NCBI GenBank assembly: GCA_000163695.1
Contig: GG774889.1
Location: 520,042-584,041, forward strand
Direction: 5' to 3'
Origin: Bacteroidetes oral taxon 274 str. F0058
GTDB lineage: Bacteria > Bacteroidota > Bacteroidia > Bacteroidales > Paludibacteraceae
DNA length: 64,000 nt
Shown piece by piece: positions 4,704-30,634 of the stretch (its first letter is position 1; every line of letters starts with the position of its first letter). The translations under genes and the position numbers were made by a program. A model generated the notes under the pieces. That model searched no databases. It was not told the DNA's origin and was given only the letters and a program-made list of their open reading frames with translations.

Positions 4704-4713
4704 TTTTTGTGTT

Positions 4714-9180: not shown

Positions 9181-11160
9181 ATGAAAAGAGTTTTTCGAAA
9201 AATGATTATCGCCTTGTTGGCGATATTGTGGGGAGTCTCATCGGTACAGGCACAGAGTGTCAATATGGACCGTTACATTACCCTTACCGTAAAGCAGGGT
9301 GCAGCCGTGCTTATTAATATGGCTTCCAATGCGGCTAATACTCCTATAAAGATAGTAAGTGGCAGCGAAGAGTGGAATATAACCGTTGGTACTCTTTGGA
9401 CAGGGGTAAAGAGTTACACTGCCGGAGCCACCACTATGACGGTATATGGTGATGTTCTGAAATTCGACTGTAACGAGAATATGGAAGATCTTACAGGACT
9501 CGATGTAAGCCACAACGATCTGATGTCAAGTTTGGAATGTACCAATAATTCTCTTACCTCGCTCGACGTAAGTAAAAATGAAAAGCTTATATCACTCCAG
9601 TGTGCGGACAATTTTCTTACCACGCTTGACGTAAGCAGTTGTACTAATTTGAAAACTTTAAATTGCTTCAACAACAACCTTACCACGCTCGACGTAAGTA
9701 AAAATACGCAACTTAGGATAATTTACTGTTTCTCAAATAAACTTACTTCGCTCGACGTAAGTAAGAATACGCAACTGGTGATACTTAATTGTCAAGGTAA
9801 TAAGTTCACAACCGAAACCCTTGATGACCTTTTCTGCTCGTTGCCGCAAAGGAAAGGGTTGCTGACAGGGAGAATAGCGCCCGTTACGAGCTCCTCTTCG
9901 CCCGACAACAGTATGGTGCTTGCCACTAACGGCAATAATGCCACTGCTAAGAATTGGAAAGTCGTATACTATGCCAACAATGCCCCAATTACAGGCTTTA
10001 CCGGCACGAAACAGTGTGAAGGCGGTAGCAATGTCAATATGGACCGTTACATTACGATGTCGGTTACTGAGGGCGACAGTATCAAACTCGATATCTCTGC
10101 CGATGTTGCTGGTACTCAGGTGAAAATATCGAGTGGAGGCGAAGAACAAATCATAACCGTAGGTACCGCCTGGACAGATACTAAAAAGTATGCTGCCAAA
10201 GCCGGAACTATGACTGTCTACGGTAATGTAAATCGATTCAACTGCGGCAAAAACGGTAAAAAAATAACCGGACTTGACATAAGCCACAATACACAACTTA
10301 ACTTATTGTTTTGCGAAGAAAATGATATTCCTTCTCTGGATATAAGTAAAAATACACATTTGGAGTTTCTGGAGTGCTACGACAACAAGATACCTTCATT
10401 AAACTTAAAAAACAGCCCGAAACTGTCGAGATTGAGCTGCTACAGAAATTCCCTTTCTACGCTCGATGTGAGCAATAATACGCTGCTGACATTCTTGAGC
10501 TGTCATACCAATAAACTTACTTCGCTTGACGTGAGCAAAAACACTAATTTGCAAATTCTAAATTGCAGATCGAACCAACTGACTTCGCTCGATGTAAGTA
10601 AAAATACTGAGTTGGAATGGTTGTATTGCTTTGACAACAAGCTATCTTCTCTTGATATAAGTAAGAATATTCATTTAAGTTCGTTGTATTGCTATGGCAA
10701 TAATTTTTCAACTGCTGTTCTCGATGACATTTACTGCTCGTTGCCCGACAGGAAAGGTAAAGACGGAGGTAAAATAGACCCTGCATACAATGCTTCCTCT
10801 CCTGATAAAGATAAAGTACTCGCCTCCAATGGCAACAATGCTATAGCTCGTAACTGGAAAGTGCAATATTTCGAAGATGATTCCGATATTACAGGCTTTA
10901 CCGGCACACATCAGTGCGGAGGTGGTACGGGTATCGATGAAGCGAAAGGCTTACCTGCGCTTGCCGTTTACCCCAATCCCGTCAAAGATATCCTGAATAT
11001 AATTTCCGATACCCCCGTCCACAGCATACGCATATACAACGTATACGGTACGGAAGTAGCCCACGCTACCGATACCAACAGTATCGACGTCTCTCATCTG
11101 CCCGCAGGCGTCTATATGGTGCGTGCCGACGGCAAGGTAACGAGGATTATTAAGGAATAA
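9181..11160 (+). CDS. secreted LRR protein with two modules and a T9SS (Por) C-terminal sorting domain
   Basis: Signal peptide ...SSVQAQ; the N-domain starting SVNMDRYITLTV occurs twice (second copy NVNMDRYITMSV). ~22-aa LRRs (L-TSLDVSKNTxLxxLxCxxNxL), Cys linker ...DDLFCSLPQRKG / ...HQCGGG, and C-terminal domain LAVYPNPVKDILNI...GVYMVRADGKVTRIIKE (Por_Secre_tail-like). Confidence 0.85.
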   Translation: MKRVFRKMIIALLAILWGVSSVQAQSVNMDRYITLTVKQGAAVLINMASNAANTPIKIVSGSEEWNITVGTLWTGVKSYTAGATTMTVYGDVLKFDCNENMEDLTGLDVSHNDLMSSLECTNNSLTSLDVSKNEKLISLQCADNFLTTLDVSSCTNLKTLNCFNNNLTTLDVSKNTQLRIIYCFSNKLTSLDVSKNTQLVILNCQGNKFTTETLDDLFCSLPQRKGLLTGRIAPVTSSSSPDNSMVLATNGNNATAKNWKVVYYANNAPITGFTGTKQCEGGSNVNMDRYITMSVTEGDSIKLDISADVAGTQVKISSGGEEQIITVGTAWTDTKKYAAKAGTMTVYGNVNRFNCGKNGKKITGLDISHNTQLNLLFCEENDIPSLDISKNTHLEFLECYDNKIPSLNLKNSPKLSRLSCYRNSLSTLDVSNNTLLTFLSCHTNKLTSLDVSKNTNLQILNCRSNQLTSLDVSKNTELEWLYCFDNKLSSLDISKNIHLSSLYCYGNNFSTAVLDDIYCSLPDRKGKDGGKIDPAYNASSPDKDKVLASNGNNAIARNWKVQYFEDDSDITGFTGTHQCGGGTGIDEAKGLPALAVYPNPVKDILNIISDTPVHSIRIYNVYGTEVAHATDTNSIDVSHLPAGVYMVRADGKVTRIIKE

Positions 11161-11166
11161 ACATAC

Positions 11167-11200: not shown

Positions 11201-11215
11201 ATTTTGATAAAAAAA

Positions 11216-11254: not shown

Positions 11255-11321
11255 GCGTTGTCTTGGAGAACATTGCGGTTGGTTTTTGTTAAAATAACTT
11301 TCATAATTTTAGCTTTTTTAT

Positions 11322-11329
11322 TAACTTTG
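11322..11329 (+). promoter_or_regulatory. -7 promoter motif TAACTTTG for LRR gene 2
   Basis: The same motif recurs at 14561, 17137, 19002 (TACCTTTG), 20856 (TAATTTTG), 23468, 24674, 27768 (TAACTTCG) and 29277. Confidence 0.55.
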
Positions 11330-11416
11330 CCGCTGCTAAAAAAAATTGAGATTTAAAAAGCGAGTAGTCGAAACACGAATAGTTAGTTTTATTAATCAAA
11401 TAAATATTTACAAAAG

Positions 11417-14362
11417 ATGAAAAGTGTTTTTCAAAAATGTCTTATCGCTCTTTTGGCGATATTGTGGTGTGTCTCCTTGGTGCAGGCACAGAGTGTCAAT
11501 ATGTCTCGTTACATTACGCTGACTGTCGAGAAAGGAGCGGATATATTGCTTGATATTGCTGCCGATGCGGCTAATACTCCTATAAAGATAGTAAGTGGCG
11601 ACAAAGAACAGACTATAACCGTTGGTACGTCGTGGACAGGGGTAAAGAGTTATGCCGCAGGAGATGCTACTATGACGGTCTATGGCGATGCACTGAAGTT
11701 GGATTGCAGTAAAAACGGTGCAAAAGTTACAGGTTTGAATACAAGCAGCAATGCACAATTGCAATTGTTGTTTTGCTACAAAGACTCTATTAGCTCGCTC
11801 GACCTAAGTAATAATGAAGAGCTGAAAAGCTTGCATTGCTTTGGCGACAAACTCACTTCGCTCGATGTAAGTAAAAATAAACAGTTGCAGTGGTTGAAAT
11901 GCCACGACAACCGACTTACCACTATCGACGTAAGCCATAATACGCAATTAAAATATATGACTTGCTATGGCAACGATTTTACTACTGCGGCTTTGGATAA
12001 TATTTATTGCTTATTACCCGACAGGACAGGACAAAAGGCAGGAGAAATACAGCCGTTGCTAAATGCCTCGTCTTCAGAGAAAAACAAGGTACTCGCTACC
12101 AACGGTAACAATGCCATTGCCCGAAACTGGAAAGTGCAGTACTCTCAGAATAGTTCCGTGATAACAGGCTTCACGGGCACTAAGCAGTGTGGCGGCAGTA
12201 GCGGTGTCAATATGGACAGATACATTACTCTGACTGTCGTATCGGGCGAAGAAATCAATCTGAATTTTTTTGCCGATGCCGATAATACGCCGATAAAAAT
12301 AGTGAGTGGTACCAAAGAACAAACCATAACCGTAGGTGCTTCGTGGACAGGTATGAATAAATACATTACTGACGGCAGTACTATGACGGTTTATGGGAAT
12401 GTCCAAAAATTCAGTTGCGGAGGCAATGGAAAGAATATAACGGGGCTTGATGTAAGCCACAATTCGCAATTGACCATATTATATTGCGATAAAAACGCTA
12501 TTATCTCGCTTAATGTAAGCGGCAATACGGAGTTAAAAAATTTAGATTGTAAAGAGAACGCTATTGCATCTCTCGATTTAAGTAACTGCAAACAGTTGAA
12601 GTGGGTATATTGTAACAAAAATGCTCTTACTTCGCTCAACGTAAGTAAATGTGAACAGTTGGAACTGTTGAAATGCTATGAGAATAAACTTACTTCTCTT
12701 GATGTTGGTAATAATGCTATGTTGAAGATGTTATATTGCGAAGAAAATGCTCTTACATCTCTCGACGTAAGCCGCAATACAGAGTTGATAAGCCTGTATT
12801 GTCAACAAAACTCTATTTCTTCCCTTAACTTGGGTGGTAACACAAAGTTGCGAATATTGTTTTGTTACGAAAATGCTCTTAACTCACTCGATGTAAGTAA
12901 ATGTACACAGTTGGAATGGTTGTATTGTGCGGATAATCCTATTTCTACTCTCGACATAAGTCATAATAAGCATTTAAGTACATTGTATTGCTATGGCAAC
13001 AACTTTACTACTGCCGCCCTCGATGATATTTACTGCTCGCTACCCGACAGGAAAGGCAAGAGCAAAGGGGATATAGCTCCTCTGCTAAATGCTTCGTCTG
13101 TCGACAAAAGCAAGGTGCTTGCTACCAATGGCAACAATGCCGCTGTTAGGGGTTGGAAGGCAATATATTACGAAGGCAACTCGGAGATTACAGGCTTTAC
13201 CGGTACTAAACAGTGTGGCGGCGGTAGCGGTGTCAATATGGACAGATACATTACGCTGACCGTCGATAAAGGTAAGGAAATATTTCTAAGCGTCTATGCC
13301 TCCGCAGATAATACTCCTATAAAAATAGTTAGCGGCGACAAAGAGTATACCTTCAATACAGGCGCCGGCTGGACAAAAATGAGCAAATACACTGCCGGAG
13401 CCGGTACTATGACAATCTACGGTAATGTATGGCAATTCAACTGTCGTGATAATGCCGCAAATATTACGGGCTTGGATGCGAGCCACAATGCAGAATTACA
13501 GACATTGATATGTAATAATAATGCTATTGCCTCACTCAATGTAAGCGGCAATACGGACTTGATAGGTCTATACTGTCTGGGTAATGCTCTGACAACGCTC
13601 GATGTGAGCAAAAATATGAAATTGGCGAATTTGTATTGCTATGAAAATTCACTTACTACCCTCGATATAGGCAACAATACGGAGTTGGCTTTTCTGGATT
13701 GCCGCTCGAACAAACTCACCTCTCTCGACGTTAGCAAGAATAAGAAGCTGAAGACGCTCGATTGTCGCTCCAATAAGCTTACCGCAATTGATTTAAGTAA
13801 CAATACGGAGTTGGAAAGTTTCCATTGTTCCGAAAACGCTCTTTCTACGCTCGACCTGAGCCACAATTCCGAATTAAATTCGTTGTATTGCTACGGCAAC
13901 AACTTTACTACTGCTGCCCTTGACGACATTTACTGCTCTCTGCCAAACAGAGGCGGACAAGCAATAATAGGGTTGATACAACCTCTACTCAATGCTTCGT
14001 CGCCCGATAAAGACAAAGTGCTTGCTACCAACGGCAACAATGCCGCTACTAAAAACTGGGCTCTGACTTATTATGAAAATGATGCCGAGATTACGGGCTT
14101 TACCGGCACACATCAGTGCGGAGGCGGTACAGGCATCGACGAAACTAAAGACTTACTCTCACTTGCCGTCTACCCGAACCCCGTCAAAGACATTCTGAAT
14201 ATAGCTACCGACAAACCCGTACACAACATACGCATATACAACGTATACGGCACGGAAGTAGCCCACGCAACCGATACGAACAGTATCAATGTATCGCACC
14301 TGCCCGCAGGTGTATATATGGTGCGTGCCGACGGTAAGGTAGCAAGGATAATCAAGGAATAA
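11417..14362 (+). CDS. secreted LRR protein with three modules and a T9SS C-terminal domain
   Basis: 981 aa; the N-domain motif GVNMDRYITLTV restarts near nt 12200 and 13222; three LRR blocks, each followed by the linker YCxLPDR.G...ATNGNNA...ITGFTGTxQCGG; C-terminal domain identical in type to gene 1. Confidence 0.85.
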   Translation: MKSVFQKCLIALLAILWCVSLVQAQSVNMSRYITLTVEKGADILLDIAADAANTPIKIVSGDKEQTITVGTSWTGVKSYAAGDATMTVYGDALKLDCSKNGAKVTGLNTSSNAQLQLLFCYKDSISSLDLSNNEELKSLHCFGDKLTSLDVSKNKQLQWLKCHDNRLTTIDVSHNTQLKYMTCYGNDFTTAALDNIYCLLPDRTGQKAGEIQPLLNASSSEKNKVLATNGNNAIARNWKVQYSQNSSVITGFTGTKQCGGSSGVNMDRYITLTVVSGEEINLNFFADADNTPIKIVSGTKEQTITVGASWTGMNKYITDGSTMTVYGNVQKFSCGGNGKNITGLDVSHNSQLTILYCDKNAIISLNVSGNTELKNLDCKENAIASLDLSNCKQLKWVYCNKNALTSLNVSKCEQLELLKCYENKLTSLDVGNNAMLKMLYCEENALTSLDVSRNTELISLYCQQNSISSLNLGGNTKLRILFCYENALNSLDVSKCTQLEWLYCADNPISTLDISHNKHLSTLYCYGNNFTTAALDDIYCSLPDRKGKSKGDIAPLLNASSVDKSKVLATNGNNAAVRGWKAIYYEGNSEITGFTGTKQCGGGSGVNMDRYITLTVDKGKEIFLSVYASADNTPIKIVSGDKEYTFNTGAGWTKMSKYTAGAGTMTIYGNVWQFNCRDNAANITGLDASHNAELQTLICNNNAIASLNVSGNTDLIGLYCLGNALTTLDVSKNMKLANLYCYENSLTTLDIGNNTELAFLDCRSNKLTSLDVSKNKKLKTLDCRSNKLTAIDLSNNTELESFHCSENALSTLDLSHNSELNSLYCYGNNFTTAALDDIYCSLPNRGGQAIIGLIQPLLNASSPDKDKVLATNGNNAATKNWALTYYENDAEITGFTGTHQCGGGTGIDETKDLLSLAVYPNPVKDILNIATDKPVHNIRIYNVYGTEVAHATDTNSINVSHLPAGVYMVRADGKVARIIKE

Positions 14363-14416
14363 TACTGTTTAAGCGTTCAATCGTTGAACTGTTTAACTGA
14401 TGTTTTCATTAAAAAA

Positions 14417-14448
14417 CGGGGAGTGGAGTTGATACCGCTCCTCGTTTT
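14417..14448 (+). terminator. intrinsic terminator of LRR gene 2
   Basis: AACGGGGAGTGGAGTTGATACCGCTCCTCGTTTT. Confidence 0.7.
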
Positions 14449-14656: not shown

Positions 14657-16951
14657 ATGAAAAGTGTTTTTCAAAAATGTCTTATCGCCCTCTTGGCGAT
14701 ATTGTGGGGTGTCTCATCGGTGCAGGCACAGAGTGTCAATATGTCTCGTTACATCACGATGACCGTGAAAAGCGGAGAGAACATAGAACTTGACTTCTCG
14801 GGAGACGCTGACGGTACGCAGGTGAAAATAGTTAGCGGTGCCCAAGAGCAAACCGTAACGGTAGGTACCTCTTGGATAGGTCCTCAAAGGTATACAGCCG
14901 GAGCGGGTACTATGACTGTCTACGGCAATGTATCGAAGTTTAATTGCAATAGTAACGTTGCAAAAATCACAGGACTCGATGTAAGCCACAATTCGGAGTT
15001 GAAAAGTTTGCTGTGTTACAAAAACAAACTCTCGTCGCTCGATGTAAGCAAATGCGGAAAACTGACGGAGCTGGATTGCGGTATTAATTCTCTTACCTCG
15101 CTGAATTTAAGTGGCTGCGGAGAATTGATTGAATTAGATTGTTCGAGCAATAGCCTCACCTCGCTGGACGTAACTCGCAATACGAAATTGACGGATTTGA
15201 GTTGCTACGACAATAAACTTACCTCGATAGATGTAAGCAAAAATACTCAATTGATACTTTTTAGTTGCAGCCTCAACTCTATTGCCTCGCTTGATGTAAA
15301 GAACAATACCAAGTTGGAAGAGTTTTTCTGCCATAGCAATTCGCTCACCTCTCTCGACATAAGTAGCAATACGAGATTGGTAAGGTTGAATTGCAGTAAC
15401 AACAAAATCGAATCGCTCGATTTAAGCAATAATATGAAATTGCAATTTCTCTTTTGCTTTGCCAATTCGCTTACTTCGCTCAAATTTAACCCCGATTCGA
15501 AGTTAAATTCGTTGTATTGCTATGACAATAAATTTACCACTGCCGCTCTCGACGATATTTATTGCTCGCTGCCCGACAGAAAAGGGGTAACCGCAGGAGT
15601 GATGCAACCCTTACATGATGCTTCGTCGCCCGACAAAGATATAGTACTTGCTACCAACGGCAGCAATGCTACTTCCAAAAATTGGAAGATTCTGTATTTT
15701 AAGGATTTTACCGACATTAAGGGCTTTACCGGCACTAAACAGTGTGGCGGAGGTAGCGGTGTCAATATGGAGCGTTACATAACGTTTGCCGTAAAGAAAG
15801 GAGCAAAAATAGAAATCGATTTTGCGGCAGACGAAGAAAACACACCAGTTAAGATAGTGAGCGGTACAACCGACCAGACCATAACCGTAGGTATCGACTG
15901 GGTAGGGTCGATGGATTATGTAGCCGGTGACGCTACTATGACAGTATATGGTAATGTGCGTAGAGTAGACTGCAACGAGAATAAGGGAAATATAACCGCC
16001 CTCGATGCAAGCCACAACGTACCACTTGCGTATATCAATTGCGACAACAACTCTATCTCATCGCTCAATGTGAGCAAAAATACGCAATTGAGTGCACTGT
16101 ACTGTTCCGATAACTCTCTTTCTACGCTCGATGTGAGCAATAACGGACAGCTGGAGTATCTCAACTGTTATAACAACAAGCTTACACAGCTCGACTTGAA
16201 AAATAATACGAAACTGACATTCTTGAACTGCGGTAGAAATACTATCTCTTCGCTCGATTTAAGTAAAAATACGCAATTGAGCATATTGTACTGTAATGAT
16301 AATAAACTTACTTCGCTCGGTATCGACCATAATATCCTTTTGAAGAGTTTTGGTTGTAACAACAACTTGCTCTCGTCTCTCGATGTGAGCAAAAATACAC
16401 AATTGGATATACTGTATTGCTACACCAATCGTCTCACTAAGCTCGATGTAAGCAAAAATACAAAATTGAAAAGATTGTATTGCCATACGAACAATTTTAC
16501 TACTGCCGCCCTCGATGATATTTACTGCTCGCTGCCCGACAGAAAAGGACAAACAGAGGGACAAATACAACCGTTGTTCAACGCCTCGTCTGCCGACAAA
16601 AGCAAGGTTCTTGCTACCAACGGCAACAACGCTATTGCCAAGGGATGGAAGATACAGTATTTCGAGAAAAACACCGATATTACGGGCTTTACGGGCACAC
16701 ATCAGTGCGGAGGCGGTACAGGTATCGATGAAGCGAAAGGCTTACCTGCGCTTGCCGTTTACCCCAATCCCGTAAAAGATGTCTTGAATATAGCTACCGA
16801 CAAACCGGTACACAGCATACGCATATACAATGTATACGGCACGGAAGTAGCCCACGCCACCGATACGAACAGTGTCAATGTATCACACCTACCCGCAGGT
16901 GTCTATATGGTGCGTGCCGACGGCAAGGTAGCAAGGATAATCAAGGAATAA
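14657..16951 (+). CDS. secreted LRR protein with two modules and a T9SS C-terminal domain
   Basis: 764 aa; the first 37 aa are identical to genes 2 and 8; second module starts at GVNMERYITFAV; C-terminal domain conserved. Confidence 0.85.
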   Translation: MKSVFQKCLIALLAILWGVSSVQAQSVNMSRYITMTVKSGENIELDFSGDADGTQVKIVSGAQEQTVTVGTSWIGPQRYTAGAGTMTVYGNVSKFNCNSNVAKITGLDVSHNSELKSLLCYKNKLSSLDVSKCGKLTELDCGINSLTSLNLSGCGELIELDCSSNSLTSLDVTRNTKLTDLSCYDNKLTSIDVSKNTQLILFSCSLNSIASLDVKNNTKLEEFFCHSNSLTSLDISSNTRLVRLNCSNNKIESLDLSNNMKLQFLFCFANSLTSLKFNPDSKLNSLYCYDNKFTTAALDDIYCSLPDRKGVTAGVMQPLHDASSPDKDIVLATNGSNATSKNWKILYFKDFTDIKGFTGTKQCGGGSGVNMERYITFAVKKGAKIEIDFAADEENTPVKIVSGTTDQTITVGIDWVGSMDYVAGDATMTVYGNVRRVDCNENKGNITALDASHNVPLAYINCDNNSISSLNVSKNTQLSALYCSDNSLSTLDVSNNGQLEYLNCYNNKLTQLDLKNNTKLTFLNCGRNTISSLDLSKNTQLSILYCNDNKLTSLGIDHNILLKSFGCNNNLLSSLDVSKNTQLDILYCYTNRLTKLDVSKNTKLKRLYCHTNNFTTAALDDIYCSLPDRKGQTEGQIQPLFNASSADKSKVLATNGNNAIAKGWKIQYFEKNTDITGFTGTHQCGGGTGIDEAKGLPALAVYPNPVKDVLNIATDKPVHSIRIYNVYGTEVAHATDTNSVNVSHLPAGVYMVRADGKVARIIKE

Positions 16952-17189: not shown

Positions 17190-18707
17190 ATGAATAGACT
17201 TTTTCGTAAGACAATTGTCGCCCTATTGGCGATAGTATGGAGTGCCTCATCGTTGCAGGCACAGGAAGTAAATATGTCCCGCTACATCACGCTGACGGTA
17301 AAGCAGGGTACAACCGTACATTTCGATATTTGGGCAGACGCTCCGAATACTCCCATAAAAGTGATAAGTGGCGATAAAGAGCGAGAAATAACCGCAGGTA
17401 CGGAATGGACAAGTATAAAAAACTACATTGCCGGAGCCGGTACTATGACGATTTACGGTAATGTACAGAAGTTTGATTGCGACGAGAATAAAGAAAAAAT
17501 TGTCGGTGTCGACCTAACCCACAATACAAAACTGACCGAGTTGGGTTGTTCGGGAAATCGTATTGCTACCCTCGATGTAAGCCAGAGCACACAGTTGGAA
17601 GCATTGTATTGTAGTGGCAATCGCCTTGCAGCTCTCGATGTTAGTAAAAATACGCAACTGAAAAGTTTGAACTGTTTCGATAATAGTCTTGCAGCTCTCG
17701 ATGTCAGTAAAAATACACTACTATTGTATTTGAACTGCGGCATAAACTCTATTACCTCCCTCGATGTGAGTCATAATACGGAATTGACGAATCTGTACTG
17801 TCATTCCAATCGTATTGCCTCGCTCGACGTCAGTAAAAATACGAAGTTGGTACAATTGCATTGCTTCGAAAACTCTATTGCATCACTCGACTTGAGCCGA
17901 AATACTGCATTGACTTTATTGTATTGCTACAAAAATGCTCTTACCTCGCTCGACCTAAGAAACAATACAAATGTCGAAAGATTGATTTGCTTCGAAAACT
18001 CTCTTACCTCACTCGACGTAAGTAATAGCAAGCAACTTACGCTCTTGAATTGCCACACAAACCGCCTTACGTCGCTCGACCTGAGCCACAACGCCAAACT
18101 GGGTAAGCTGAGTTGCTACAAAAATGCTCTTACGTCGCTCGATATGAGTAATAATCCGGAATTGGAATGGATATATTGTTTCGAAAACCCTCTTGCAGAG
18201 TTCAAATTAAGAAACAATATGCGTCTGAGGTCGTTGCATTGTTACGACAATAAACTCACTACCGCCGACTTAGACGATCTTTTCTGCTCGCTGCCCGATA
18301 GAAACGGACAGGCAGAGGGAAGGATAGGTATCCTCTTCAATGCGTCGTCTGCCGAGAATGCCAAAGTACTCGCCACCAACGGCAGAAACGCCGTTGCAAA
18401 AAACTGGACGGTACAGTATTACGAAGATAAATCGGAAATCAAGGGTTTCACAGGTAACCATCAGTGTACGACTACAGGCTTGGACGATATAAAAAACAAA
18501 CAGGACATATCCGTCTACCCGAACCCCGTAGAAGACGTCCTGAACATAACTTCCGACAAACCAGTGCACAGCATACGCTTATACAACGTGTACGGCACGG
18601 AGGTACTCCGAGCTGCCGATACGAACAGCGTCGACGTCTCTCATCTGCCCGCAGGCGTCTATATGGTGCGTGCCGACGGCAAGGTAGTGAGGGTAATCAA
18701 GAAATAA
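17190..18707 (+). CDS. secreted LRR protein with one module and a T9SS C-terminal domain
   Basis: Start taken at MNRLFRK (17190), where the signal peptide begins; the annotated 17094 start lies upstream of the -7 promoter motif at 17137. About 14 LRRs; C-terminal domain ISVYPNPVEDVLNITSDKPVHSIRLYNVYGTEVLRAADT... Confidence 0.8.
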   Translation: MNRLFRKTIVALLAIVWSASSLQAQEVNMSRYITLTVKQGTTVHFDIWADAPNTPIKVISGDKEREITAGTEWTSIKNYIAGAGTMTIYGNVQKFDCDENKEKIVGVDLTHNTKLTELGCSGNRIATLDVSQSTQLEALYCSGNRLAALDVSKNTQLKSLNCFDNSLAALDVSKNTLLLYLNCGINSITSLDVSHNTELTNLYCHSNRIASLDVSKNTKLVQLHCFENSIASLDLSRNTALTLLYCYKNALTSLDLRNNTNVERLICFENSLTSLDVSNSKQLTLLNCHTNRLTSLDLSHNAKLGKLSCYKNALTSLDMSNNPELEWIYCFENPLAEFKLRNNMRLRSLHCYDNKLTTADLDDLFCSLPDRNGQAEGRIGILFNASSAENAKVLATNGRNAVAKNWTVQYYEDKSEIKGFTGNHQCTTTGLDDIKNKQDISVYPNPVEDVLNITSDKPVHSIRLYNVYGTEVLRAADTNSVDVSHLPAGVYMVRADGKVVRVIKK

Positions 18708-19046: not shown

Positions 19047-20636
19047 ATGAATAAACTTTTTCAAAAAACTATTATCGCCCTGCTGGCGATAGTGTGGAGT
19101 GCCGCCACCATTCAGGCACAGAATGTAAATACTGATCGTTACATTAAGCTGACCGTAGAGCAAGGACAGAAGATTAAGTTAAGGCTGTGGGCAGATGCCG
19201 CAGGCACATCGGTAAAAATCGTAAGCGGTGCCCAAGAGCAGACAATAACGGTAGGTTCGGCGTGGTCTTCCGCTCAAGATTATACTGCCGGCGACGGTAC
19301 TATGACGATATACGGTAATGTGCAGAGATTAAACTGTGCAGGGAACGGCAAAAATATCATAGATATCGATCTTAGCCATAATACGCAGATGACTATGCTC
19401 TATTGCGAAGAGAATGCTCTCTCTACTCTCGACATTAGTAAAAATACTAAATTGACGAGATTGAGTTGCCAAAAGAATGCTCTTACTGCGCTCGACATCA
19501 GTCATAATAAGCAGCTGGAGTATTTAAGCTGCTTTTCGAACAAACTTAAAGCCCTCGACGTAAGTAGTAATGAACAGTTAGTATGGCTGTATTGTTACGA
19601 TAATGACTTTACCACAGCCTCTTTGGATGACCTTTTCTGCTCGCTACCCGATAGAGAAAATAAAAGTGTAGGAAAAATAGGACTCGTATTTAATGCTGCC
19701 TCTCCCGAAAAAGACAAAGTACTCGCCACCAATGGCAACAACGCTACCTCAAAAAATTGGAAGTTACAGTATTATGACGATGATATTGACATTAAAGGAT
19801 TTAAGGGTACATACTCGTGCGGTAGTAATGTTAATATGTCTCGTTACATAACGTTGACCGTACAAAAGGGTGCCGATATACAACTTGACCTCTGGGCGGA
19901 TGCTGCCGGTACTCCTGTGAAAATAGTGAGCGGCGACAGCGAGAAAGTTATAACCATAGGTACGGATTGGATGGGACCAAAGAGTTATGAAGCCGAAGCT
20001 AATACTATGACAATATACGGCAATGTGCAGAGGTTCGATTGTGACGATAATTCCGAAAATATTACAGGGATCGATATAAGCCACAATACGGAGTTGCAGC
20101 GTATGCTCTGTAACGGTAATGCTCTGACGGCTCTCGATATAAGTCACAATAAGCAATTGAGTTATCTGGCTTGCTACGGCAATAAGTTTACTGCCGCTAC
20201 CTTAGACGACATCTATTGCTCGCTACCCGACAGGAAAGGACAAACCGCAGGACAAATACTACCGTTGTTGGGAGGAAGTTCTTCCGACAACGGTAAGGTG
20301 CTTGCTACCAACGGCAGCAATGCTACTGCCAGAAATTGGAAAATACAGTATTATAGCGACGAAGCTGATATTACGGGCTTTACGGGTACACATTCGTGCA
20401 CAACCGGTATAGAAGATATAAAAAATACGAATGACATATCCGTTTACCCGAACCCTGTCAAAGACATTCTGAATATAGCCTCCGACAAACCTGTACACAG
20501 CATACGCATATACAACGTATACGGCACGGAAGTAGCTCACGCTTCCGATACGAACAGCGTCGACGTATCTCATCTGCCCGCAGGTGTCTATATGGTGCGT
20601 GCCGACGGCAAAGTAGTGAGGGTTATTAAGAAATAA
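19047..20636 (+). CDS. secreted LRR protein with two short modules and a T9SS C-terminal domain
   Basis: 529 aa; second module starts at NVNMSRYITLTV; each LRR block is short (~4-5 repeats); C-terminal domain conserved. Confidence 0.85.
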   Translation: MNKLFQKTIIALLAIVWSAATIQAQNVNTDRYIKLTVEQGQKIKLRLWADAAGTSVKIVSGAQEQTITVGSAWSSAQDYTAGDGTMTIYGNVQRLNCAGNGKNIIDIDLSHNTQMTMLYCEENALSTLDISKNTKLTRLSCQKNALTALDISHNKQLEYLSCFSNKLKALDVSSNEQLVWLYCYDNDFTTASLDDLFCSLPDRENKSVGKIGLVFNAASPEKDKVLATNGNNATSKNWKLQYYDDDIDIKGFKGTYSCGSNVNMSRYITLTVQKGADIQLDLWADAAGTPVKIVSGDSEKVITIGTDWMGPKSYEAEANTMTIYGNVQRFDCDDNSENITGIDISHNTELQRMLCNGNALTALDISHNKQLSYLACYGNKFTAATLDDIYCSLPDRKGQTAGQILPLLGGSSSDNGKVLATNGSNATARNWKIQYYSDEADITGFTGTHSCTTGIEDIKNTNDISVYPNPVKDILNIASDKPVHSIRIYNVYGTEVAHASDTNSVDVSHLPAGVYMVRADGKVVRVIKK

Positions 20637-20909: not shown

Positions 20910-23270
20910 ATGAATAGATTTTTTCAAAAGGTTCTTATCGCCGTGCTGGCGATAATAGTGTGTGGTGCTTCATCATTGCGGGCACAAAGTGTCAATATGG
21001 ATCGCTATATGACGATTACCGTCAAGCAAGGAGCAAGTATAAACTTCAGTATGTGGGCAGATGCTGCCGATACTCAGGTAAAAATAGTTAGCGGTAGCAA
21101 CGAGCAGACCATACCGGTAGATGCTTCTTGGACAGCTATGAATGATTATGTTGCCGGAGCCACTACTATAAAGATTTATGGTAATGTGCTTAAATTAAAC
21201 TGTTTTAGAAACGGACTTAACGTTACGGGATTGGACGTGAGCCACAATACTCAGTTGCAGGAATTAAATTGCTATAGCAATGGTCTTACCTCACTCGATA
21301 TAAGTGGAAATGCACAATTGGAGCTGTTGAGTTGCTATGACAATAAACTTACATCGCTGAATCTGAGTAACAGTCTGCAGCTGACGGAATTAAACTGTCA
21401 AGATAATTTTCTTACATCTCTCGATGTAAGTCGCAATACGAAACTGAAAGAATTATATTGTTACAAAAACTCTCTTACATCTCTTGTCTTAGGTGATAAT
21501 GCGAATTTAGAATGGTTGTATTGCTTCGACAACTCTATTTCTAAGCTCGACCTGAGCAAAAGTACACAGTTGGAACGATTGTTTTGTTATAATAATTCTA
21601 TTTCCACACTCGACCTAAGTCACAATACACAATTGCTATCATTGAATTGCCATGGCAATAAATTTACCACCGCCTCTATCGACGATATTTACTGTTCGCT
21701 GCCCGACAGAAAAGGAAATCCCACAGGAATGATATATCTTTTGTTTAATGCTTCGTCTGCCGATAAAGACAAGGTGCTCGCTTCGAATGGCGGTAATGCG
21801 ACCAATAAAAACTGGGAGGTGAAGTATTATGAAAGCAACTCGAATATTACGGGTTTTACCGGTACGCATCCTTGCGGAGGAGGCAGCGGGGTAAACACAG
21901 ACCGCTACATAACGCTCACAGTGAAGGAGCGTAAACAGATATGGCTCAACTTATGGGCAGATGCCGCCGATACTCAGGTAAAAATAGTTAGCGGCAGCAA
22001 CGAGAAGACCGTAACCGTTGGCGACAAATGGACAGAATGGAAAGATTATACCGCAGGTGCAGCTACTATGACCATTTACGGTAATGTGCGAAAACTCGAT
22101 TGTAGCAACAATAACACGAACATTACGGGCTTGGATGCAAGCCACAATGCACAATTGCAAGAATTATTGTGTTATAGCAATTCTCTTACTTCTCTCGACT
22201 TGAGCCACAATACTCAGCTAAAAGTGTTGGGTTGTTTCGCCAATTCTATTACCTCGCTCGATGTAAGCCACAATGCACAGCTGACCGAACTGGATTGCTC
22301 GGAGAACAAGATTTCGTCGCTCGACGTAAGCAAAAATACACAGTTGGTAAAGTTGTTTTGTCTGAAAAACTCCATCTCCACACTCGACGTAAGCCACGAT
22401 ACGCAATTGACATCGCTGAATTGCTCCGAGAATAAGATTTCGTCACTCGATGTGAGCAAAAATGTGAAGTTGGAGAAACTGCATTGTAACAAGAATGCCC
22501 TTACCTCAATCGACGTGAGCAAGAATTTACAACTGACGGGACTGGATTGCTCTGCAAACAAACTTAAGTCTATCGACGTAAGTAAAAATACGGTGTTGGA
22601 ATGGCTGTATTGTTTCGATAACTCCATCACCTCGCTTGATGTGAAGAACAATACGCAATTGAAAAATTTACGTTGCTTCAACAACAGTCTTGCCACGCTC
22701 GACGTAAGTAAAAATACTGAGCTCGAATGGCTTTATTGCTATGGGAACTCCCTTGCAGCTATCGATATAAGTAAAAATACGCAGTTGAAAGACTTCGTTT
22801 GCTATGGCAATAAATTTACTACTGCCTCTCTCGACGATATTTACTGTTCGCTACCCGACAGAAACGGTAAAGCAACTGGTATAATACGACCCGTACTCGA
22901 TGCTTCGGCACCCGATAACAGCAAGGCTCTTGCCTCTAATGGCAAAAACGCTACCGACAAAAACTGGAAGATAATGTATTATAAAGGCAATTCCGATATT
23001 ACGGGCTTTACGGGCACATATCAGTGCGGAGGCGGCACAGGCATCGACGAAACGAAAGACTCACCTGCACTTGCCGTCTACCCGAACCCCGTCAAAGATA
23101 TACTGAATATAGCTACCGACAAACCTGTACACAGCATACGCATATACAACGTGTATGGCACGGAAGTAGCCCAAGCCACCGATACCGACAGTATAGACCT
23201 CTCTCATCTGCCGTCAGGCGTCTATATGGTGCGTGCCGACGGCAAAGTAACGAGGATTATTAAGGAATAA
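20910..23270 (+). CDS. secreted LRR protein with two modules and a T9SS C-terminal domain
   Basis: 786 aa; the second LRR block contains internally duplicated repeats (...LDCSENKISSLDVSKNTQL... occurs twice) and shares an ~130-nt block with gene 10. Confidence 0.85.
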   Translation: MNRFFQKVLIAVLAIIVCGASSLRAQSVNMDRYMTITVKQGASINFSMWADAADTQVKIVSGSNEQTIPVDASWTAMNDYVAGATTIKIYGNVLKLNCFRNGLNVTGLDVSHNTQLQELNCYSNGLTSLDISGNAQLELLSCYDNKLTSLNLSNSLQLTELNCQDNFLTSLDVSRNTKLKELYCYKNSLTSLVLGDNANLEWLYCFDNSISKLDLSKSTQLERLFCYNNSISTLDLSHNTQLLSLNCHGNKFTTASIDDIYCSLPDRKGNPTGMIYLLFNASSADKDKVLASNGGNATNKNWEVKYYESNSNITGFTGTHPCGGGSGVNTDRYITLTVKERKQIWLNLWADAADTQVKIVSGSNEKTVTVGDKWTEWKDYTAGAATMTIYGNVRKLDCSNNNTNITGLDASHNAQLQELLCYSNSLTSLDLSHNTQLKVLGCFANSITSLDVSHNAQLTELDCSENKISSLDVSKNTQLVKLFCLKNSISTLDVSHDTQLTSLNCSENKISSLDVSKNVKLEKLHCNKNALTSIDVSKNLQLTGLDCSANKLKSIDVSKNTVLEWLYCFDNSITSLDVKNNTQLKNLRCFNNSLATLDVSKNTELEWLYCYGNSLAAIDISKNTQLKDFVCYGNKFTTASLDDIYCSLPDRNGKATGIIRPVLDASAPDNSKALASNGKNATDKNWKIMYYKGNSDITGFTGTYQCGGGTGIDETKDSPALAVYPNPVKDILNIATDKPVHSIRIYNVYGTEVAQATDTDSIDLSHLPSGVYMVRADGKVTRIIKE

Positions 23271-27868: not shown

Positions 27869-29077
27869 ATGAGTAAACTTTTTCGAAAAAAAATGATTGT
27901 TGCCATTTTGGCAATAATGTGCGGTGCTGCCATCGTGCAGGCACAAGAGGTAAATATGTCTCGCTACGTTACATTGAATGTAACAAAGAATGAAAAAGCG
28001 TCGCTTAGCCTCACAGCCGACGCAGACAACACTCCGTTGAAAATAGTAAGCGGCGGTCAGGAAAATGCCGTAACTATCGGTACATCGTGGACAGATAGCA
28101 AAGAGTACGCCTCAGTAGACGGTACTATAACAATCTACGGTAATGTGCAGAAAATCAATTGTAGTAATAACGATAAAAAGTTGACAGGTATCGACGTAAG
28201 CCATAATGCCGAGCTAACCATACTGTTTTGCTTCAAAAACGCTCTTACTACGCTCGACGTAGGTAATCTTACCAAGTTGGAGTATTTATATTGCAACGAC
28301 AATAAACTTACCTCGCTTGATTTAAGCAAAAACAAACAATTGTCGAAATTAAATTGCTTCGGAAATACTATATCTTCACTGGATCTAAGTCAAAATTCAC
28401 AATTGGAAATCGTGCGTTGCTACAAGAATGTACTTACTAAGTTCAATATAAACGGCTGCAACCAACTGACACTTCTGCACTGCGGAGAGAATCGTCTTAC
28501 CTCGCTCGATGTAAGTGCAAATACAAAACTCGAACGTCTGTATTGTGATAATAATGATATATCCAAACTTGATGTAAGCAACAATGAGCAACTGAATACG
28601 TTGTTTTGTTACAACAATAAATTATCCGTAGAGGCTTTCGATGACCTTTTTTGTTCTTTGCCTAATAGAAAAGATAAAGAAGCGGGTAAAATAGCCCCTA
28701 CCCTCAATAAGTCGTCTGCCGAAAAAGACAAAATACTCTCCACCAATGGTATAAATGCTATTACAAGAAACTGGGATGTACAGTATTATGAAGAGGAATA
28801 CAATATTAGCGGTTTCAAAGGCACACATCAGTGCGGAGGCAGTACAGGCATCGACGAAACGAAAGGCTTGCCTGCACTCGCCGTTTACCCGAACCCTGTC
28901 AAAGATGTCCTGAATATAGCTACCGACAAACCGGTGCACAGCATACGCATATACAACGCGTACGGCACGGAAGTAGCCCACGCCGCCGACGCTACGAGTA
29001 TCGATGTATCGCAGCTGCCCGCAGGCGTCTATATGGTGCGTGCCGACGGCAAGGTAACCAGAATTATTAAGGAATAA
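27869..29077 (+). CDS. secreted LRR protein with one module and a T9SS C-terminal domain
   Basis: 402 aa; signal peptide, N-domain, ~8 LRRs, linker and conserved C-terminal domain. Confidence 0.85.
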   Translation: MSKLFRKKMIVAILAIMCGAAIVQAQEVNMSRYVTLNVTKNEKASLSLTADADNTPLKIVSGGQENAVTIGTSWTDSKEYASVDGTITIYGNVQKINCSNNDKKLTGIDVSHNAELTILFCFKNALTTLDVGNLTKLEYLYCNDNKLTSLDLSKNKQLSKLNCFGNTISSLDLSQNSQLEIVRCYKNVLTKFNINGCNQLTLLHCGENRLTSLDVSANTKLERLYCDNNDISKLDVSNNEQLNTLFCYNNKLSVEAFDDLFCSLPNRKDKEAGKIAPTLNKSSAEKDKILSTNGINAITRNWDVQYYEEEYNISGFKGTHQCGGSTGIDETKGLPALAVYPNPVKDVLNIATDKPVHSIRIYNAYGTEVAHAADATSIDVSQLPAGVYMVRADGKVTRIIKE

Positions 29078-29362: not shown

Positions 29363-30634
29363 ATGAAGAGAGAACTTAAAACAATTCTTATCGCCTTTGG
29401 AACGATATTATGGAGTGCTTCCTCTGTCTGGGCACAAGATGTCAATATGTCTCGTTACATTACGCTTAAGGTAAAAAAGGGGACAAATATAAAGCTCGAC
29501 CTTTGGGCGGATGCTGCCGGTACTACTATAAAAATAGTTAGCGGCAGCAACGAGCAAACCGTAAAAGTAGATAGCGCCTGGACACACTCTCGAAACTATG
29601 TCGCCGAAGCCGGTACTATGACTATTTACGGCAATGTGCTGAGGTTTAACTGTTGTGATAACAATGCAAATGTTACCGAATTGAATGCAAGTCATAATGC
29701 ACAATTGCAAGGGTTGTTCTGCAGTAATAATACTATTACTTCGATAGACGTAAGTAAAAATCCGGAACTGTTATGGTTGTATTGCCACGAAAACTCTTTG
29801 GCAACGCTTGATGTCAGTCATAGTACTAAATTGAAAGGTCTGCGATGTTATCAAAACACTCTTACCTCGCTCGATGTAAGCCATAATGAACAATTGACGG
29901 AGTTGGATTGCTCGGAAAACAAGATTTCGTCTCTCGATGTAAGCAAAAATACACTGTTGACGAAATTGTTTTGTCTGAAAAACGCTATAACAACACTTGA
30001 CGTAAGTAAAAATACTCAATTGACGATTTTAGACTGTGGAAAAAATAATCTTACATCTCTAGATGTTAGCAAAAACACAAGTTTAGAAGAACTGTATTGC
30101 TTTGGAAATTCTATTGCTACACTTGATTTTAGCCGTAATGCGAGTTTAAAATCGGTGTCTTGTTATAATAATAAGTTTACTGCCAAGGTATTAGATGATA
30201 TTTACTGTTCGCTGCCCGATAGGAAAGGGGGAGAAGAAACAGGTATAATAAATCCCGTATTAAATGCTTCGTCTCCCGATAATAGTATAGTACTTGCCAC
30301 CAACGGTAAAAACGCTACCGCTAGAAACTGGCAGATACAGTATTACGAAGATGACACTGATGTTACGGGCTTTACCGGTACGCACCAATGTGTAGGTGGC
30401 ACAGGCATCGACGAAACGAAAGATTTACCGGCATTCAGCATATATCCTAACCCCGTCAAAGACATTTTGAATATAGCTCCCGACAAACCCGTACACAGTA
30501 TACATATATACAACACATACGGCACGGAAGTAGCCCACGCTACCGACGCTACGAGTATCGATGTATCGCACCTGTCCGCAGGCGTCTATATGGTGCATGC
30601 CGATGGCAAGGTAACAAGGATAATTAAGGAATAA
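29363..30634 (+). CDS. secreted LRR protein with one module and a T9SS C-terminal domain (last array member)
   Basis: 423 aa; N-domain, ~9 LRRs, linker and C-terminal domain with minor divergence (AFSIYPNPVKDILNIAPDKPVHSIHIYNTYGTEV). Confidence 0.85.
   Translation: MKRELKTILIAFGTILWSASSVWAQDVNMSRYITLKVKKGTNIKLDLWADAAGTTIKIVSGSNEQTVKVDSAWTHSRNYVAEAGTMTIYGNVLRFNCCDNNANVTELNASHNAQLQGLFCSNNTITSIDVSKNPELLWLYCHENSLATLDVSHSTKLKGLRCYQNTLTSLDVSHNEQLTELDCSENKISSLDVSKNTLLTKLFCLKNAITTLDVSKNTQLTILDCGKNNLTSLDVSKNTSLEELYCFGNSIATLDFSRNASLKSVSCYNNKFTAKVLDDIYCSLPDRKGGEETGIINPVLNASSPDNSIVLATNGKNATARNWQIQYYEDDTDVTGFTGTHQCVGGTGIDETKDLPAFSIYPNPVKDILNIAPDKPVHSIHIYNTYGTEVAHATDATSIDVSHLSAGVYMVHADGKVTRIIKE

What the first reader, a model, noticed from the sequence alone, without database searches (positions are those of the whole stretch)
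11417..14362. Proteins built from 1-3 reiterations of an N-domain / LRR / Cys-linker module
Inside single ORFs the ~90-aa N-domain (starting [GN]VNM[DS]RYIT[LM]TV) restarts after each LRR block. Each restart is preceded by a ~70-aa linker carrying two conserved Cys (YCSLPDRKG ... HQCGGG). In gene 2 the restarts fall near nt 12200 and 13222. Genes carry 1 (17190, 27869, 29363), 2 (9181, 14657, 19047, 20910) or 3 (11417, 24766) modules. LRR counts per module vary from ~4 to ~14. This points to unequal recombination at module boundaries as a length- and valency-variation mechanism.
Basis: seen in the sequence. Interest (0 to 1): 0.65.

Follow-up and report, generated by a model that had tools for sequence, protein, structure and literature searches.

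The report
Shuffled capped-LRR modules in surface proteins
A Bacteroidales bacterium carries nine neighbouring genes for secreted surface proteins, each built from one to three complete, self-capped leucine-rich-repeat binding units, and related strains combine the same units differently, so the number and mix of units per protein changes by recombination at unit borders.

Summary
Window 9181-30634 (+) holds nine tandem paralogues with a type IX secretion (T9SS) C-terminal sorting domain. They contain 17 modules: 2, 3, 2, 1, 2, 2, 3, 1, 1. In gene 11417-14362 the module restarts fall at nt 12206 and 13232.

Each module has three parts: a ~65-aa beta-sandwich; 21-aa LRRs of the InlJ "cysteine-ladder" type (2-12 full repeats, lengths always 86+21n); and a 62-66-aa part with two invariant Cys. 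AlphaFold2 predicts that last part to be a folded alpha/beta cap, not a linker (pLDDT 96). Modules are joined like beads on a string.

Modules within the window are old (45-77% aa identity), so nothing here duplicated recently. Contigs of the same species from other samples carry the same modules at 94-100% identity with different partners: B1-B2, B1-B3, G1-B1-B2, A1-B3, A1-C2, C1 alone, C1-C2, Z-C2, Z-G2. The mapped junctions lie within -92 to +15 nt of a module end.

Whether the events are unequal crossover, gene conversion or exchange between strains is unresolved.

The closest known proteins are the single-module P. gingivalis InlJ/PG0350-type internalins. I rate this a new variant of a known kind. 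Adhesin function is inferred.

The parts
11417..14362 (+). Gene B, the finding: 981-aa T9SS cargo protein with three modules B1-B2-B3 plus a C-terminal sorting domain (CTD)
   Evidence: ORF. Por_Secre_tail PF18962 49 bits and TIGR04183 37.7 bits, both above cut-off. Orthologues of 981 aa at 95-97% identity in 15 protein clusters.
11417..11488 (+). Putative Sec signal peptide of B (MKSVFQKCLIALLAILWCVSLVQA)
   Evidence: Read from the sequence: a hydrophobic core followed by VQA|Q. No predictor was run. Conserved among paralogues at 72% mean DNA identity.
11495..12190 (+). Module B1. N beta-sandwich 11495-11689; LRR region 11690-11962 (first turn plus 4 repeats); C-cap 11963-12190
   Evidence: B1 is the first module here but an internal module (G1-B1-B2) in L001 and P0136.
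12191..12205 (+). Inter-module linker GGSSG
   Evidence: The equivalent linker in the two-module model has lowered pLDDT of 73.
12206..13216 (+). Module B2. N beta-sandwich 12206-12400; LRR region 12401-12988 (9 repeats); C-cap 12989-13216
   Evidence: Absent from the 639-aa B1-B3 allele (P0148, L003). It is the last module in the 680-aa B1-B2 allele (P0003, P0011, L004).
13232..14119 (+). Module B3. N beta-sandwich 13232-13426; LRR region 13427-13888 (7 repeats); C-cap 13889-14119
   Evidence: Closest paralogue is G3 (77% aa, 81% DNA). In other strains it follows A1 or B1.
14168..14359 (+). T9SS type-A C-terminal sorting domain of B
   Evidence: PF18962 match to aa 918-975. The CTD is the best-conserved part among paralogues (83% mean DNA identity) and its segments best match different paralogues.
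14413..14448 (+). Intrinsic terminator-like hairpin after B (GGGGAGTGGAGTTGATACCGCTCCTCGTTTT)
   Evidence: (families D16, D17). Equivalent hairpins follow A (11212-11247), C (17000-17038), E (20692-20729), F (23321-23355) and X (24537-24553).
11268..11330 (+). Conserved upstream element ending in TTATTAACTTTGC, a possible Bacteroidetes -7 promoter motif (TAnnTTTG)
   Evidence: Repeat family D18, with copies before B, C, X, G and I. The promoter reading is inference from my own knowledge of the Bacteroides consensus.
9181..11160 (+). Gene A, 659 aa. Modules A1 (9259-10017, 5 LRR) and A2 (10033-10917, 7 LRR)
   Evidence: A1 is joined to B3 (L002, L004) or to C2 (L006-L009) in other strains.
14657..16951 (+). 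Gene C, 764 aa. Modules C1 (14735-15745, 9 LRR) and C2 (15761-16708, 8 LRR)
   Evidence: Elsewhere C1 stands alone as a 443-aa protein, and C2 follows Z or A1.
17190..18707 (+). Gene D. One module D1 (17268-18467, 12 LRR). The ORF opens at 17094, but the signal peptide begins at the Met at 17190
   Evidence: Orthologues are 505 aa.
19047..20636 (+). Gene E, 529 aa. Modules E1 (19125-19820, 4 LRR) and E2 (19830-20399, 2 LRR)
   Evidence: AlphaFold2 models of E2 and of mature E.
20910..23270 (+). Gene F, 786 aa. Modules F1 (20991-21875, 7 LRR) and F2 (21891-23027, 11 LRR)
   Evidence: Stable in every related contig that reaches it.
24766..27525 (+). Gene G, 919 aa. Modules G1 (24844-25413, 2 LRR), G2 (25423-26244, 6 LRR) and G3 (26260-27282, 9 LRR)
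   Evidence: G1 precedes B1 in L001. G2 follows Z (L006) or C1 (L024). A G2 allele lacks 2 LRRs (P0182).
27869..29077 (+). Gene H, 402 aa. One module H1 (27950-28834, 7 LRR)
29363..30634 (+). Gene I, 423 aa. One module I1 (29441-30391, 8 LRR)
   Evidence: A 94% orthologue, P0001.

Best explanation
Window 9181-30634 is a tandem array of nine separately transcribed genes for T9SS-exported proteins that are probably anchored on the cell surface.

Each passenger region is a string of one to three autonomous modules. A module is a small N-terminal beta-sandwich, a rigid solenoid of 21-residue InlJ-type cysteine-ladder LRRs, and a ~62-aa alpha/beta C-terminal cap with two invariant cysteines. Modules are joined by ~5-residue Gly-rich linkers. 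A flexible linker precedes the CTD.

Shown here:
- The module anatomy and its quantised lengths.
- The confident fold of one module, and low confidence about how two modules sit relative to each other.
- LRR homology to Listeria InlJ.
- About 18 module types kept under purifying selection within the species.
- Reassortment of those types among genes and positions between strains, with junctions in the C-cap/linker/N-domain-start zone.
- In-register gain or loss of 21-aa repeats.

Inferred:
- The rearrangements come from general (RecA-type) homologous recombination between paralogous cap-encoding and CTD-encoding stretches, which share 20-56 nt exact matches. The route could be unequal crossover, gene conversion or exchange between strains.
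- Each module is a ligand-binding unit whose variable concave-face positions (4, 5, 7, 9 and 10 of the repeat) set its specificity.
- Reassortment therefore changes the valency, reach and combination of adhesive specificities on the cell surface. This is by analogy with P. gingivalis InlJ/PG0350 and Listeria InlJ.
For: Anatomy. CTD hits above cut-off.

Module fold: pLDDT 96.3, pTM 0.90. Two-module protein: pLDDT 88.7, pTM 0.53, with dips at both linkers.

Reassortment: protein architectures and contig maps L001-L009 and L023-L028. The same arrangement recurs in independent samples and assemblers: L002/L004, L006-L009, L025-L028.

Breakpoints. Module integrity 240/245. A 2-LRR deletion allele.

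Purifying selection on orthologous modules, dN/dS 0.11-0.18.

Homology islands among paralogues. No recombinase gene among the 20 flanking ORFs scanned between nt 599 and 47659, and no inverted repeats in the array. A terminator after each gene.

The family extends to proteins with up to 11 profile-matched stretches and 2991 aa. Five-module examples.
Against: No event was observed directly. All rearranged alleles come from short-read metagenome assemblies, which can produce chimeras in repeats. This risk is reduced but not removed by recurrence across samples and by the low (60-80%) DNA identity between modules.

Paralogous homology tracts are short (56 nt at most), so recombination is probably rare. 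Displaced modules in L004 show that simple unequal crossover is not enough.

Observed junctions are filtered by selection for in-frame, foldable proteins. Their clustering therefore overstates any mechanistic preference.

Ligand binding, surface anchoring and the C-cap disulfide are untested; no coordinates were available to measure the Cys-Cys distance. Low dN/dS at the 'variable' LRR positions argues against an arms-race reading.
Confidence: 0.75

Rival explanations
1. The alternative module combinations are artefacts. Metagenome assemblers joined reads from different paralogues at conserved cap/CTD sequences, so the species has one fixed arrangement and no module-number polymorphism.
For: All alternative alleles come from short-read ENA/JGI assemblies. 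The junctions lie exactly where paralogues share their longest exact matches, which is where chimeric joins would form.
Against: Exact matches between paralogues are 56 nt at most and mostly under 40 nt, well below read and insert lengths.

The same non-window arrangements recur in independent samples and with different assemblers: L002 (k141) equals L004 (scaffold), and L006-L009 come from four samples.

The G1-B1-B2 architecture is present in 7 protein clusters, one with 63 member sequences and one also held by NCBI. Z-C2 occurs in more than 100 clusters.

Whole contigs stay colinear with intact flanks at 96-99% identity.
Confidence: 0.07
2. The multi-module genes are ancient, static gene fusions. 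Differences between contigs reflect distinct species or old lineages that each inherited a fixed arrangement, not ongoing recombination within a species.
For: Modules within the window are deeply diverged (45-77% aa). dS between orthologous modules is 0.10-0.16, so the strains are not very close. D, E, F, X, H and I are invariant in every contig.
Against: Flanking genes and unshuffled array genes are 93-99% identical to the window. That is a species-level range, yet at least seven arrangements of the A/B/C/G/Z modules exist within it.

Modules keep 94-100% aa identity while their partners differ, so the rearrangements are younger than the module divergence. C-cap and CTD segments best match different paralogues along their length, which indicates repeated exchange.
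Confidence: 0.13
3. A programmed variation system, such as a site-specific shufflon, an invertible promoter or a diversity-generating retroelement, drives rapid switching of module content within a clone.
For: A tandem array of surface protein genes with conserved joints resembles cassette systems. Bacteroidales commonly use invertases for surface variation (my own knowledge).
Against: No recombinase or reverse transcriptase was found among the 20 flanking ORFs scanned, which lie between nt 599 and 47659.

All genes lie on one strand. No inverted repeats flank genes or promoters. Every gene has its own promoter-like element and terminator.

There is no silent-cassette versus expression-site asymmetry. 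Orthologous modules are under purifying selection.
Confidence: 0.05

Closest known systems
Porphyromonas gingivalis T9SS internalin-like proteins InlJ/PG0350 (484 aa) and PG1374 (428 aa)
   Same: Both are Bacteroidales T9SS cargo. [quoted passage not shown] InlJ's LRRs are of the 21-residue class with a Cys replacing a hydrophobic residue (PMC5915736). That equals one module of the window proteins; H (402 aa) and I (423 aa) are of similar size. They are adhesins, binding Candida Als3 and E-cadherin.
   Different: They are described with one LRR block each; neither paper reports reiteration or module shuffling. I could not obtain their sequences, so homology of the N-domain and C-cap is untested.
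Listeria monocytogenes InlJ (PDB 3BZ5), class 1 internalin with a cysteine ladder
   Different: InlJ has a helical N-cap, an Ig-like inter-repeat domain after the LRRs, MucBP repeats and an LPXTG anchor, with a single LRR domain. Here there is a beta-sandwich N-domain, an alpha/beta C-cap, a T9SS CTD and 1-3 (elsewhere about 10) LRR domains. The NF033187 score is 261 against a cut-off of 1700.
Flavobacterium psychrophilum tandem array of LRR protein genes
   Same: A Bacteroidota tandem array (~21 kb) of consecutive LRR surface protein genes. Its content differs between strains, with 16-23 ORFs seen by hybrid assembly (PMC8400371).
   Different: The variation reported there is in the number of LRR genes. 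That paper does not describe reiterated capped modules inside one polypeptide or reassortment of modules between genes.
Slit (animal axon-guidance protein) with four tandem LRR domains D1-D4
Lamprey/hagfish variable lymphocyte receptors (VLR)
   Same: Diversity comes from recombining LRR-encoding cassettes between conserved cap-encoding ends. VLRs appear among the weak fold hits.
   Different: VLR assembly is somatic and deaminase-associated, and it uses single-LRR cassettes. Here whole capped domains are reassorted in the germline of a bacterial population, at unknown and probably low frequency.

Membership tests
T9SS type-A CTD cargo proteins | C-terminal sorting domain matching PF18962 / TIGR04183 above the curated cut-off | tested here: met
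   PF18962 scored 49.2, 44.8 and 49.7 bits against a cut-off of 27. TIGR04183 scored 37.6-38.5 bits against a cut-off of 23. These are for B, H and X. The VYPNP motif is present in all ten genes.
T9SS type-A CTD cargo proteins | N-terminal Sec signal peptide | tested here: inconclusive
   Typical hydrophobic N-termini ending in VQA|Q are seen in the sequence. No signal-peptide predictor was available.
T9SS type-A CTD cargo proteins | T9SS machinery (PorK/L/M/N, Sov, PorU/V) in the same genome, with export dependent on it | not testable with these tools
   The genome beyond the 64-kb window is not available. The ORFs scanned matched no T9SS-component family, but ORFs beyond nt 47659 were not scanned.
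InlJ-type cysteine-ladder LRR | 21-residue repeat period | tested here: met
   All module lengths equal 86+21n. DNA repeats are spaced in multiples of 63 nt. 134 repeats align in register.
InlJ-type cysteine-ladder LRR | Cys replacing the hydrophobic residue in LxxLxLxxN (giving LxxLxCxxN) | tested here: met
   Cys at repeat position 8 in 117 of 134 repeats.
InlJ-type cysteine-ladder LRR | Sequence homology to the InlJ LRR domain | tested here: met
   Profile against 3bz5_A: E 9.5e-61 over 5 stretches.
Class 1 internalin InlJ (NF033187, Listeria) | Full-length match above the NCBIfam cut-off, covering helical cap, LRR, IR domain, MucBP repeats and LPXTG | tested here: not met
   261 bits against a cut-off of 1700; only profile positions 90-315 of 846 are matched. 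No LPXTG is present, and the C-terminus is a T9SS CTD.
P. gingivalis InlJ/PG0350-like T9SS internalins | Architecture: SP, beta-strand region, 21-aa Cys LRRs, linker, CTD | tested here: met
   The single-module genes H and I and every module fit this pattern. The description of PG0350 and PG1374 is from bioRxiv 10.64898/2026.04.20.719623.
P. gingivalis InlJ/PG0350-like T9SS internalins | Sequence homology of the N-domain and C-cap to PG0350/PG1374 | not tested
   Their sequences could not be fetched with these tools. Named members of the N-domain/C-cap family seen here were only 'T9SS type A sorting domain-containing protein' from Prevotella koreensis and a Porphyromonadaceae MAG.
Programmed surface-variation systems (shufflon, invertible promoter, DGR) | Dedicated recombinase or reverse transcriptase plus inverted or template repeats at the locus | tested here: not met
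   No such domain was found in the 20 flanking ORFs scanned. No relevant inverted repeats. ORFs beyond nt 47659 were not scanned.
Pfam families for the N-domain and C-cap | A significant Pfam-A, NCBIfam or PDB-sequence match to the N-domain or C-cap | tested here: not met
   No family covers these parts. The C-cap-to-N-domain profile has no PDB hit below E 0.099. Foldseek against PDB gave no hit with E <= 0.001.

The most novel reading that the evidence does not exclude
The array is a combinatorial adhesin system. A species-wide library of about 18 or more conserved capped-LRR 'specificity cassettes' would be reassorted often enough, through the conserved cap/linker and CTD joints, to give each strain its own set of mono-, bi- and trivalent surface binders. 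In related taxa the same principle would build proteins of up to about 10 modules. It would be a population-level bacterial counterpart of VLR-style LRR cassette assembly, and selection would act on module combination and valency rather than on point mutation.
Probability: 0.3. Interest if true: 0.72.

Novelty: new variant of a known kind. Interest (0 to 1): 0.58.

Why it matters
LRR surface proteins of oral and gut Bacteroidales, such as P. gingivalis InlJ, mediate adhesion, co-aggregation and host-receptor engagement.

This family shows that a whole capped LRR domain can act as an exchangeable cassette. The same conserved binding units appear as mono-, bi- or trivalent proteins, and with different partners, in different strains. 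Strain-level differences in adhesion could therefore arise without any new sequence.

It also defines two uncharacterised domains with no Pfam, NCBIfam or PDB relatives: a beta-sandwich N-domain and a two-Cys C-cap. They occur in only about 550 of 1.84 billion representative clusters.

There is a practical warning too. Short-read pangenome or MAG analyses will miscount these genes, which NCBI currently names only 'T9SS type A sorting domain-containing protein'.

Tried and rejected
- **Recent duplication inside the window.** Rejected: modules are 45-77% aa and 56-81% DNA identical, and modules of one gene are not each other's closest relatives (B3~G3, E2~G1, A1~B1).
- **Diversifying selection on LRR concave-face positions between strains.** Rejected: dN/dS is 0.11 there, as low as elsewhere.
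- **Site-specific or invertible systems.** No recombinase among the flanking ORFs scanned and no inverted repeats.
- **Naming the organism.** The genome-contig scan did not return the window's own species; the best hits were Prevotella falsenii and Porphyromonadaceae MAGs at 41-53%. Cluster look-ups gave no names for close homologues. EF-Ts places it only as an unnamed Bacteroidales: 81% to a 'Prevotellaceae' MAG and 74-75% to Paludibacteraceae MAGs.
- **C-cap disulfide.** Model coordinates are not exposed, so the Cys-Cys distance could not be measured.
- **AdpC paper (PMC2876575).** Not held. The P. intermedia LRR cargo described in PMC11969387 has ~24-residue repeats with a conserved AF motif, unlike the 21-residue Cys repeats here.
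- **Link to P. gingivalis PG0350 through cluster names.** No P. gingivalis member was found among the ten clusters checked.
Full report
**1. Observation**

The window has ten consecutive + strand ORFs between 9181 and 30634. Nine are paralogues; I call them A-I. Their starts are 9181, 11417, 14657, 17094 (true start probably 17190), 19047, 20910, 24766, 27869 and 29363. The tenth, X (23559-24473), is unrelated except for its C-terminus.

All ten end in a T9SS type-A sorting domain. PF18962 and TIGR04183 score above their cut-offs for B, H and X. The [VI]YPNP motif is present in all ten.

Motif scans find 17 modules: A 2, B 3, C 2, D 1, E 2, F 2, G 3, H 1, I 1. In gene B the restarts are at aa 264 and 606, which is nt 12206 and 13232.

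The 17 N-regions align without gaps (44-77% aa identity). The distance from N-domain start to the YCSLP motif is always 86+21n aa, with n = 2, 4, 5, 6, 7, 8, 9, 11 or 12. The same quantisation appears in 575 modules parsed from database homologues. The pattern is real, not compositional.

**2. Anatomy of a module**

The repeat consensus is T-Q-L-x-x-L-x-C-x-x-N-x-L-T-S-L-D-V-S-x-N (21 aa). Cys occupies position 8 in 117 of 134 repeats. Positions 4, 5, 7, 9 and 10 are the most variable.

A profile of the module matches the Listeria InlJ 'cysteine ladder' LRR (3bz5) at E 9.5e-61. NCBIfam InlJ is hit only partially: 261 bits against a cut-off of 1700.

AlphaFold2 on the smallest module (E2, 197 residues, 40-sequence alignment) gives pLDDT 96.3 and pTM 0.90. 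The model has a six-strand beta-sandwich (about residues 9-67), LRR turns, and then a helix, strand, two short helices and a strand. The true linker is GGGSG.

The mature two-module protein E gives pLDDT 88.7 but pTM 0.53. Confidence dips at the inter-module linker (73) and before the CTD (below 50). I read this as rigid beads on flexible strings.

**3. Age of the modules in the window**

Pairwise identity among the 17 modules is 44-77% (aa) and 56-81% (DNA). The closest pairs cross genes and positions: B3-G3 at 77%, E2-G1 at 74%, A1-B1 at 66%. The longest exact match between paralogues is 56 nt. Exact matches of 20 nt or more concentrate in the CTD (104), the C-cap (26) and the N-domain start (21).

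Mean DNA identity among paralogues is 83% in the CTD, against about 65% in module parts. The window by itself therefore shows old duplications and a more homogenised 3' end, but no recent event.

**4. Population evidence**

Searching with B returned 981-aa orthologues at 95-97% identity. It also returned proteins that are 95-97% identical to B over only part of its length: 873, 680, 660 and 639 aa. Reading them and labelling modules gives:
- B1-B2 (680 aa)
- B1-B3 (639 aa)
- G1-B1-B2 (873 aa)
- A1-B3 (660 aa)
- A1-C2 (680 aa)
- C1 alone (443 aa)
- C1-C2 (764 aa)
- Z-G2 (614 aa)
- a three-cap protein containing C1 and G2 (850 aa)
- G1-G2-G3 (919 aa)

Contigs carrying these genes have flanks 96-99% identical to the window. 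They show at least seven array arrangements:

| Source | Arrangement |
|---|---|
| Window | A1A2 \| B1B2B3 \| C1C2 \| D \| E \| F \| X \| G1G2G3 \| H \| I |
| L023 | A1A2 \| B1B2B3 \| C1 |
| L002, L004 | A1B3 \| C1 \| B1B2 \| ZC2 \| D \| E \| F |
| L006-L009 | A1C2 \| B1B2B3 \| C1 \| ZG2 \| D \| E \| F |
| L001 | G1B1B2 \| ZC2 \| D \| E \| F \| X |
| L003 | B1B3 \| C1 (split) \| D \| E \| F |
| L005, L024 | E \| F \| X \| A1'B3 \| C1-?-G2 \| H \| I |
| L025 | C1C2 \| D \| E \| F \| X \| G \| H \| I (confirms the window's 3' half) |
| L026, L027 | ZC2 \| D ... I |

Several arrangements recur in independent samples and with different assemblers. D, E, F, X, H and I are invariant.

**5. Breakpoints**

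Sliding best-match mapping places the junctions at these points (positions are nt relative to the module end or N-domain start):
- A1 C-cap -92 to B2 C-cap -91
- B2 C-cap -13 to A2 C-cap -12
- A linker to C linker
- G1 linker to B1 N+0
- B1 linker to B3 N+7
- C1 end to CTD
- G2 end to CTD

All are in register and within -92 to +15 nt of a module end. That zone is about an eighth of a module.

Of 245 homologue modules whose N-domain matches a window type, 240 carry that type's full LRR block and C-cap. Two have a junction inside the C-cap, one is a hybrid inside the LRR block, and two differ in LRR number. One G allele is 98.4% identical with a clean 42-aa (2-LRR) deletion.

Orthologous modules evolve under purifying selection: dN/dS is 0.11-0.18, including at the variable LRR positions, and dS is 0.10-0.16. 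Diversity in this species therefore comes from reassortment of conserved units, not from hypermutation.

**6. Mechanism**

No recombinase or reverse transcriptase lies among the flanking ORFs scanned. The neighbours include ferritin, a DUF6850/TonB-like/DUF4876 operon, and SPFH, ZIP, rpsB, tsf and lpxD genes. There are no inverted repeats. All genes are co-oriented, each with a conserved upstream element and a strong terminator hairpin.

The best-supported mechanism is general homologous recombination between paralogous cap-encoding and CTD-encoding tracts. In-register C-cap crossovers fit unequal crossover. The relocation of blocks in L004, and CTD segments that best match different paralogues, also need gene conversion or exchange between strains. 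Which of these dominates is unresolved. Selection for in-frame products also shapes where junctions are seen.

**7. Function (inferred)**

The proteins are probably exported by the T9SS and attached to the surface. Each module would be a rigid binding unit. Number and combination would set valency, reach and the mix of specificities.

The basis is analogy. P. gingivalis InlJ/PG0350 and PG1374 have the same single-unit layout (SP, beta region, LRRs, linker, CTD) and bind Candida Als3 and E-cadherin (PMC5915736; bioRxiv 10.64898/2026.04.20.719623). Listeria InlJ is an adhesin (as cited in PMC5915736).

**8. Distribution and taxonomy**

A C-cap-to-N-domain profile finds only 549 clusters at E <= 1e-3 among 1.84 billion representatives. 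Individual proteins have up to 11 matched stretches and reach 2991 aa. Five-module proteins with Pro-rich linkers are common among distant homologues.

The genome scan found internal junctions in Prevotella falsenii, two Porphyromonadaceae MAGs and a Bacteroidales MAG. Its EF-Ts is 81% identical to a 'Prevotellaceae' MAG and 74-75% to Paludibacteraceae MAGs. NCBI names family members only 'T9SS type A sorting domain-containing protein'.

**9. Verdict**

The thing is a new variant of a known kind: InlJ-like T9SS LRR surface proteins whose whole capped LRR domain is reiterated and exchanged as a cassette.

The main residual doubts are assembly chimerism (low), the exact recombination route, and the untested adhesin function.

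Noticed in passing
window 23559-24473 (+): Gene X (304 aa) sits inside the array and has no LRR module or Pfam domain in its passenger region. It carries the same CTD, upstream element and terminator as the LRR genes, with exact matches of up to 53 nt to the CTD of F. The CTD and regulatory 'ends' therefore seem to be homogenised across unrelated cargo genes.
   Followed up: partly
window CTDs, e.g. 10966-11157, 14168-14359, 23080-23267; L004 7873-8047 and 14152-14362: In other strains, successive CTD segments best match different window paralogues (G, X, A, B). This suggests frequent gene conversion among CTDs. The C-cap also has a higher dS (0.165) than the other module parts.
   Followed up: partly
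window 17094-17189: The ORF of gene D opens 32 codons upstream of the Met that starts the signal peptide (17190). Orthologues are called at 505 aa, so 17190 is the likely start.
   Followed up: yes
window 30634-31139; L024-L028 (e.g. L025 15986-18354): Other strains carry three extra minus-strand genes between gene I and the SPFH gene: 168 aa, 415 aa (AAA_15/AAA_21 ATPase) and 81 aa. The window lacks them. This may be a small defence-like island polymorphism.
   Followed up: no
L001 2573-3000 versus window 2946-11490: One strain lacks the whole DUF6850 / TonB-dependent-receptor-like / DUF4876 operon and gene A. Its array starts directly with G1-B1-B2 after the 217-aa gene.
   Followed up: partly
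L003 2682-3994: The C1 gene is split into two ORFs (228 and 203 aa) in this contig. This is either a frameshift pseudogene or an assembly error.
   Followed up: no
proteins P0185 (1425 aa), P0353 (2991 aa), P0351 (2639 aa): The family has extreme members. In P0185 my motif parser found only one N-domain and one C-cap about 1250 aa apart (roughly 57 LRRs if uninterrupted), although the profile search matched 6 stretches in it. Others have 9-11 profile-matched stretches, meaning up to about 10 modules.
   Followed up: partly
window 35918-36604 (-): A 227-aa ankyrin-repeat protein (Ank_2, E 1.8e-21) lies next to outer-membrane beta-barrel genes. Ankyrin repeats are uncommon in bacteria.
   Followed up: no
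protein P0153 (909 aa) versus gene G, aa 332: One G allele has a 10-aa deletion inside the G2 LRR block, which is not a multiple of 21. It would break the repeat register. This could be a real defect or an assembly or ORF-calling artefact.
   Followed up: no
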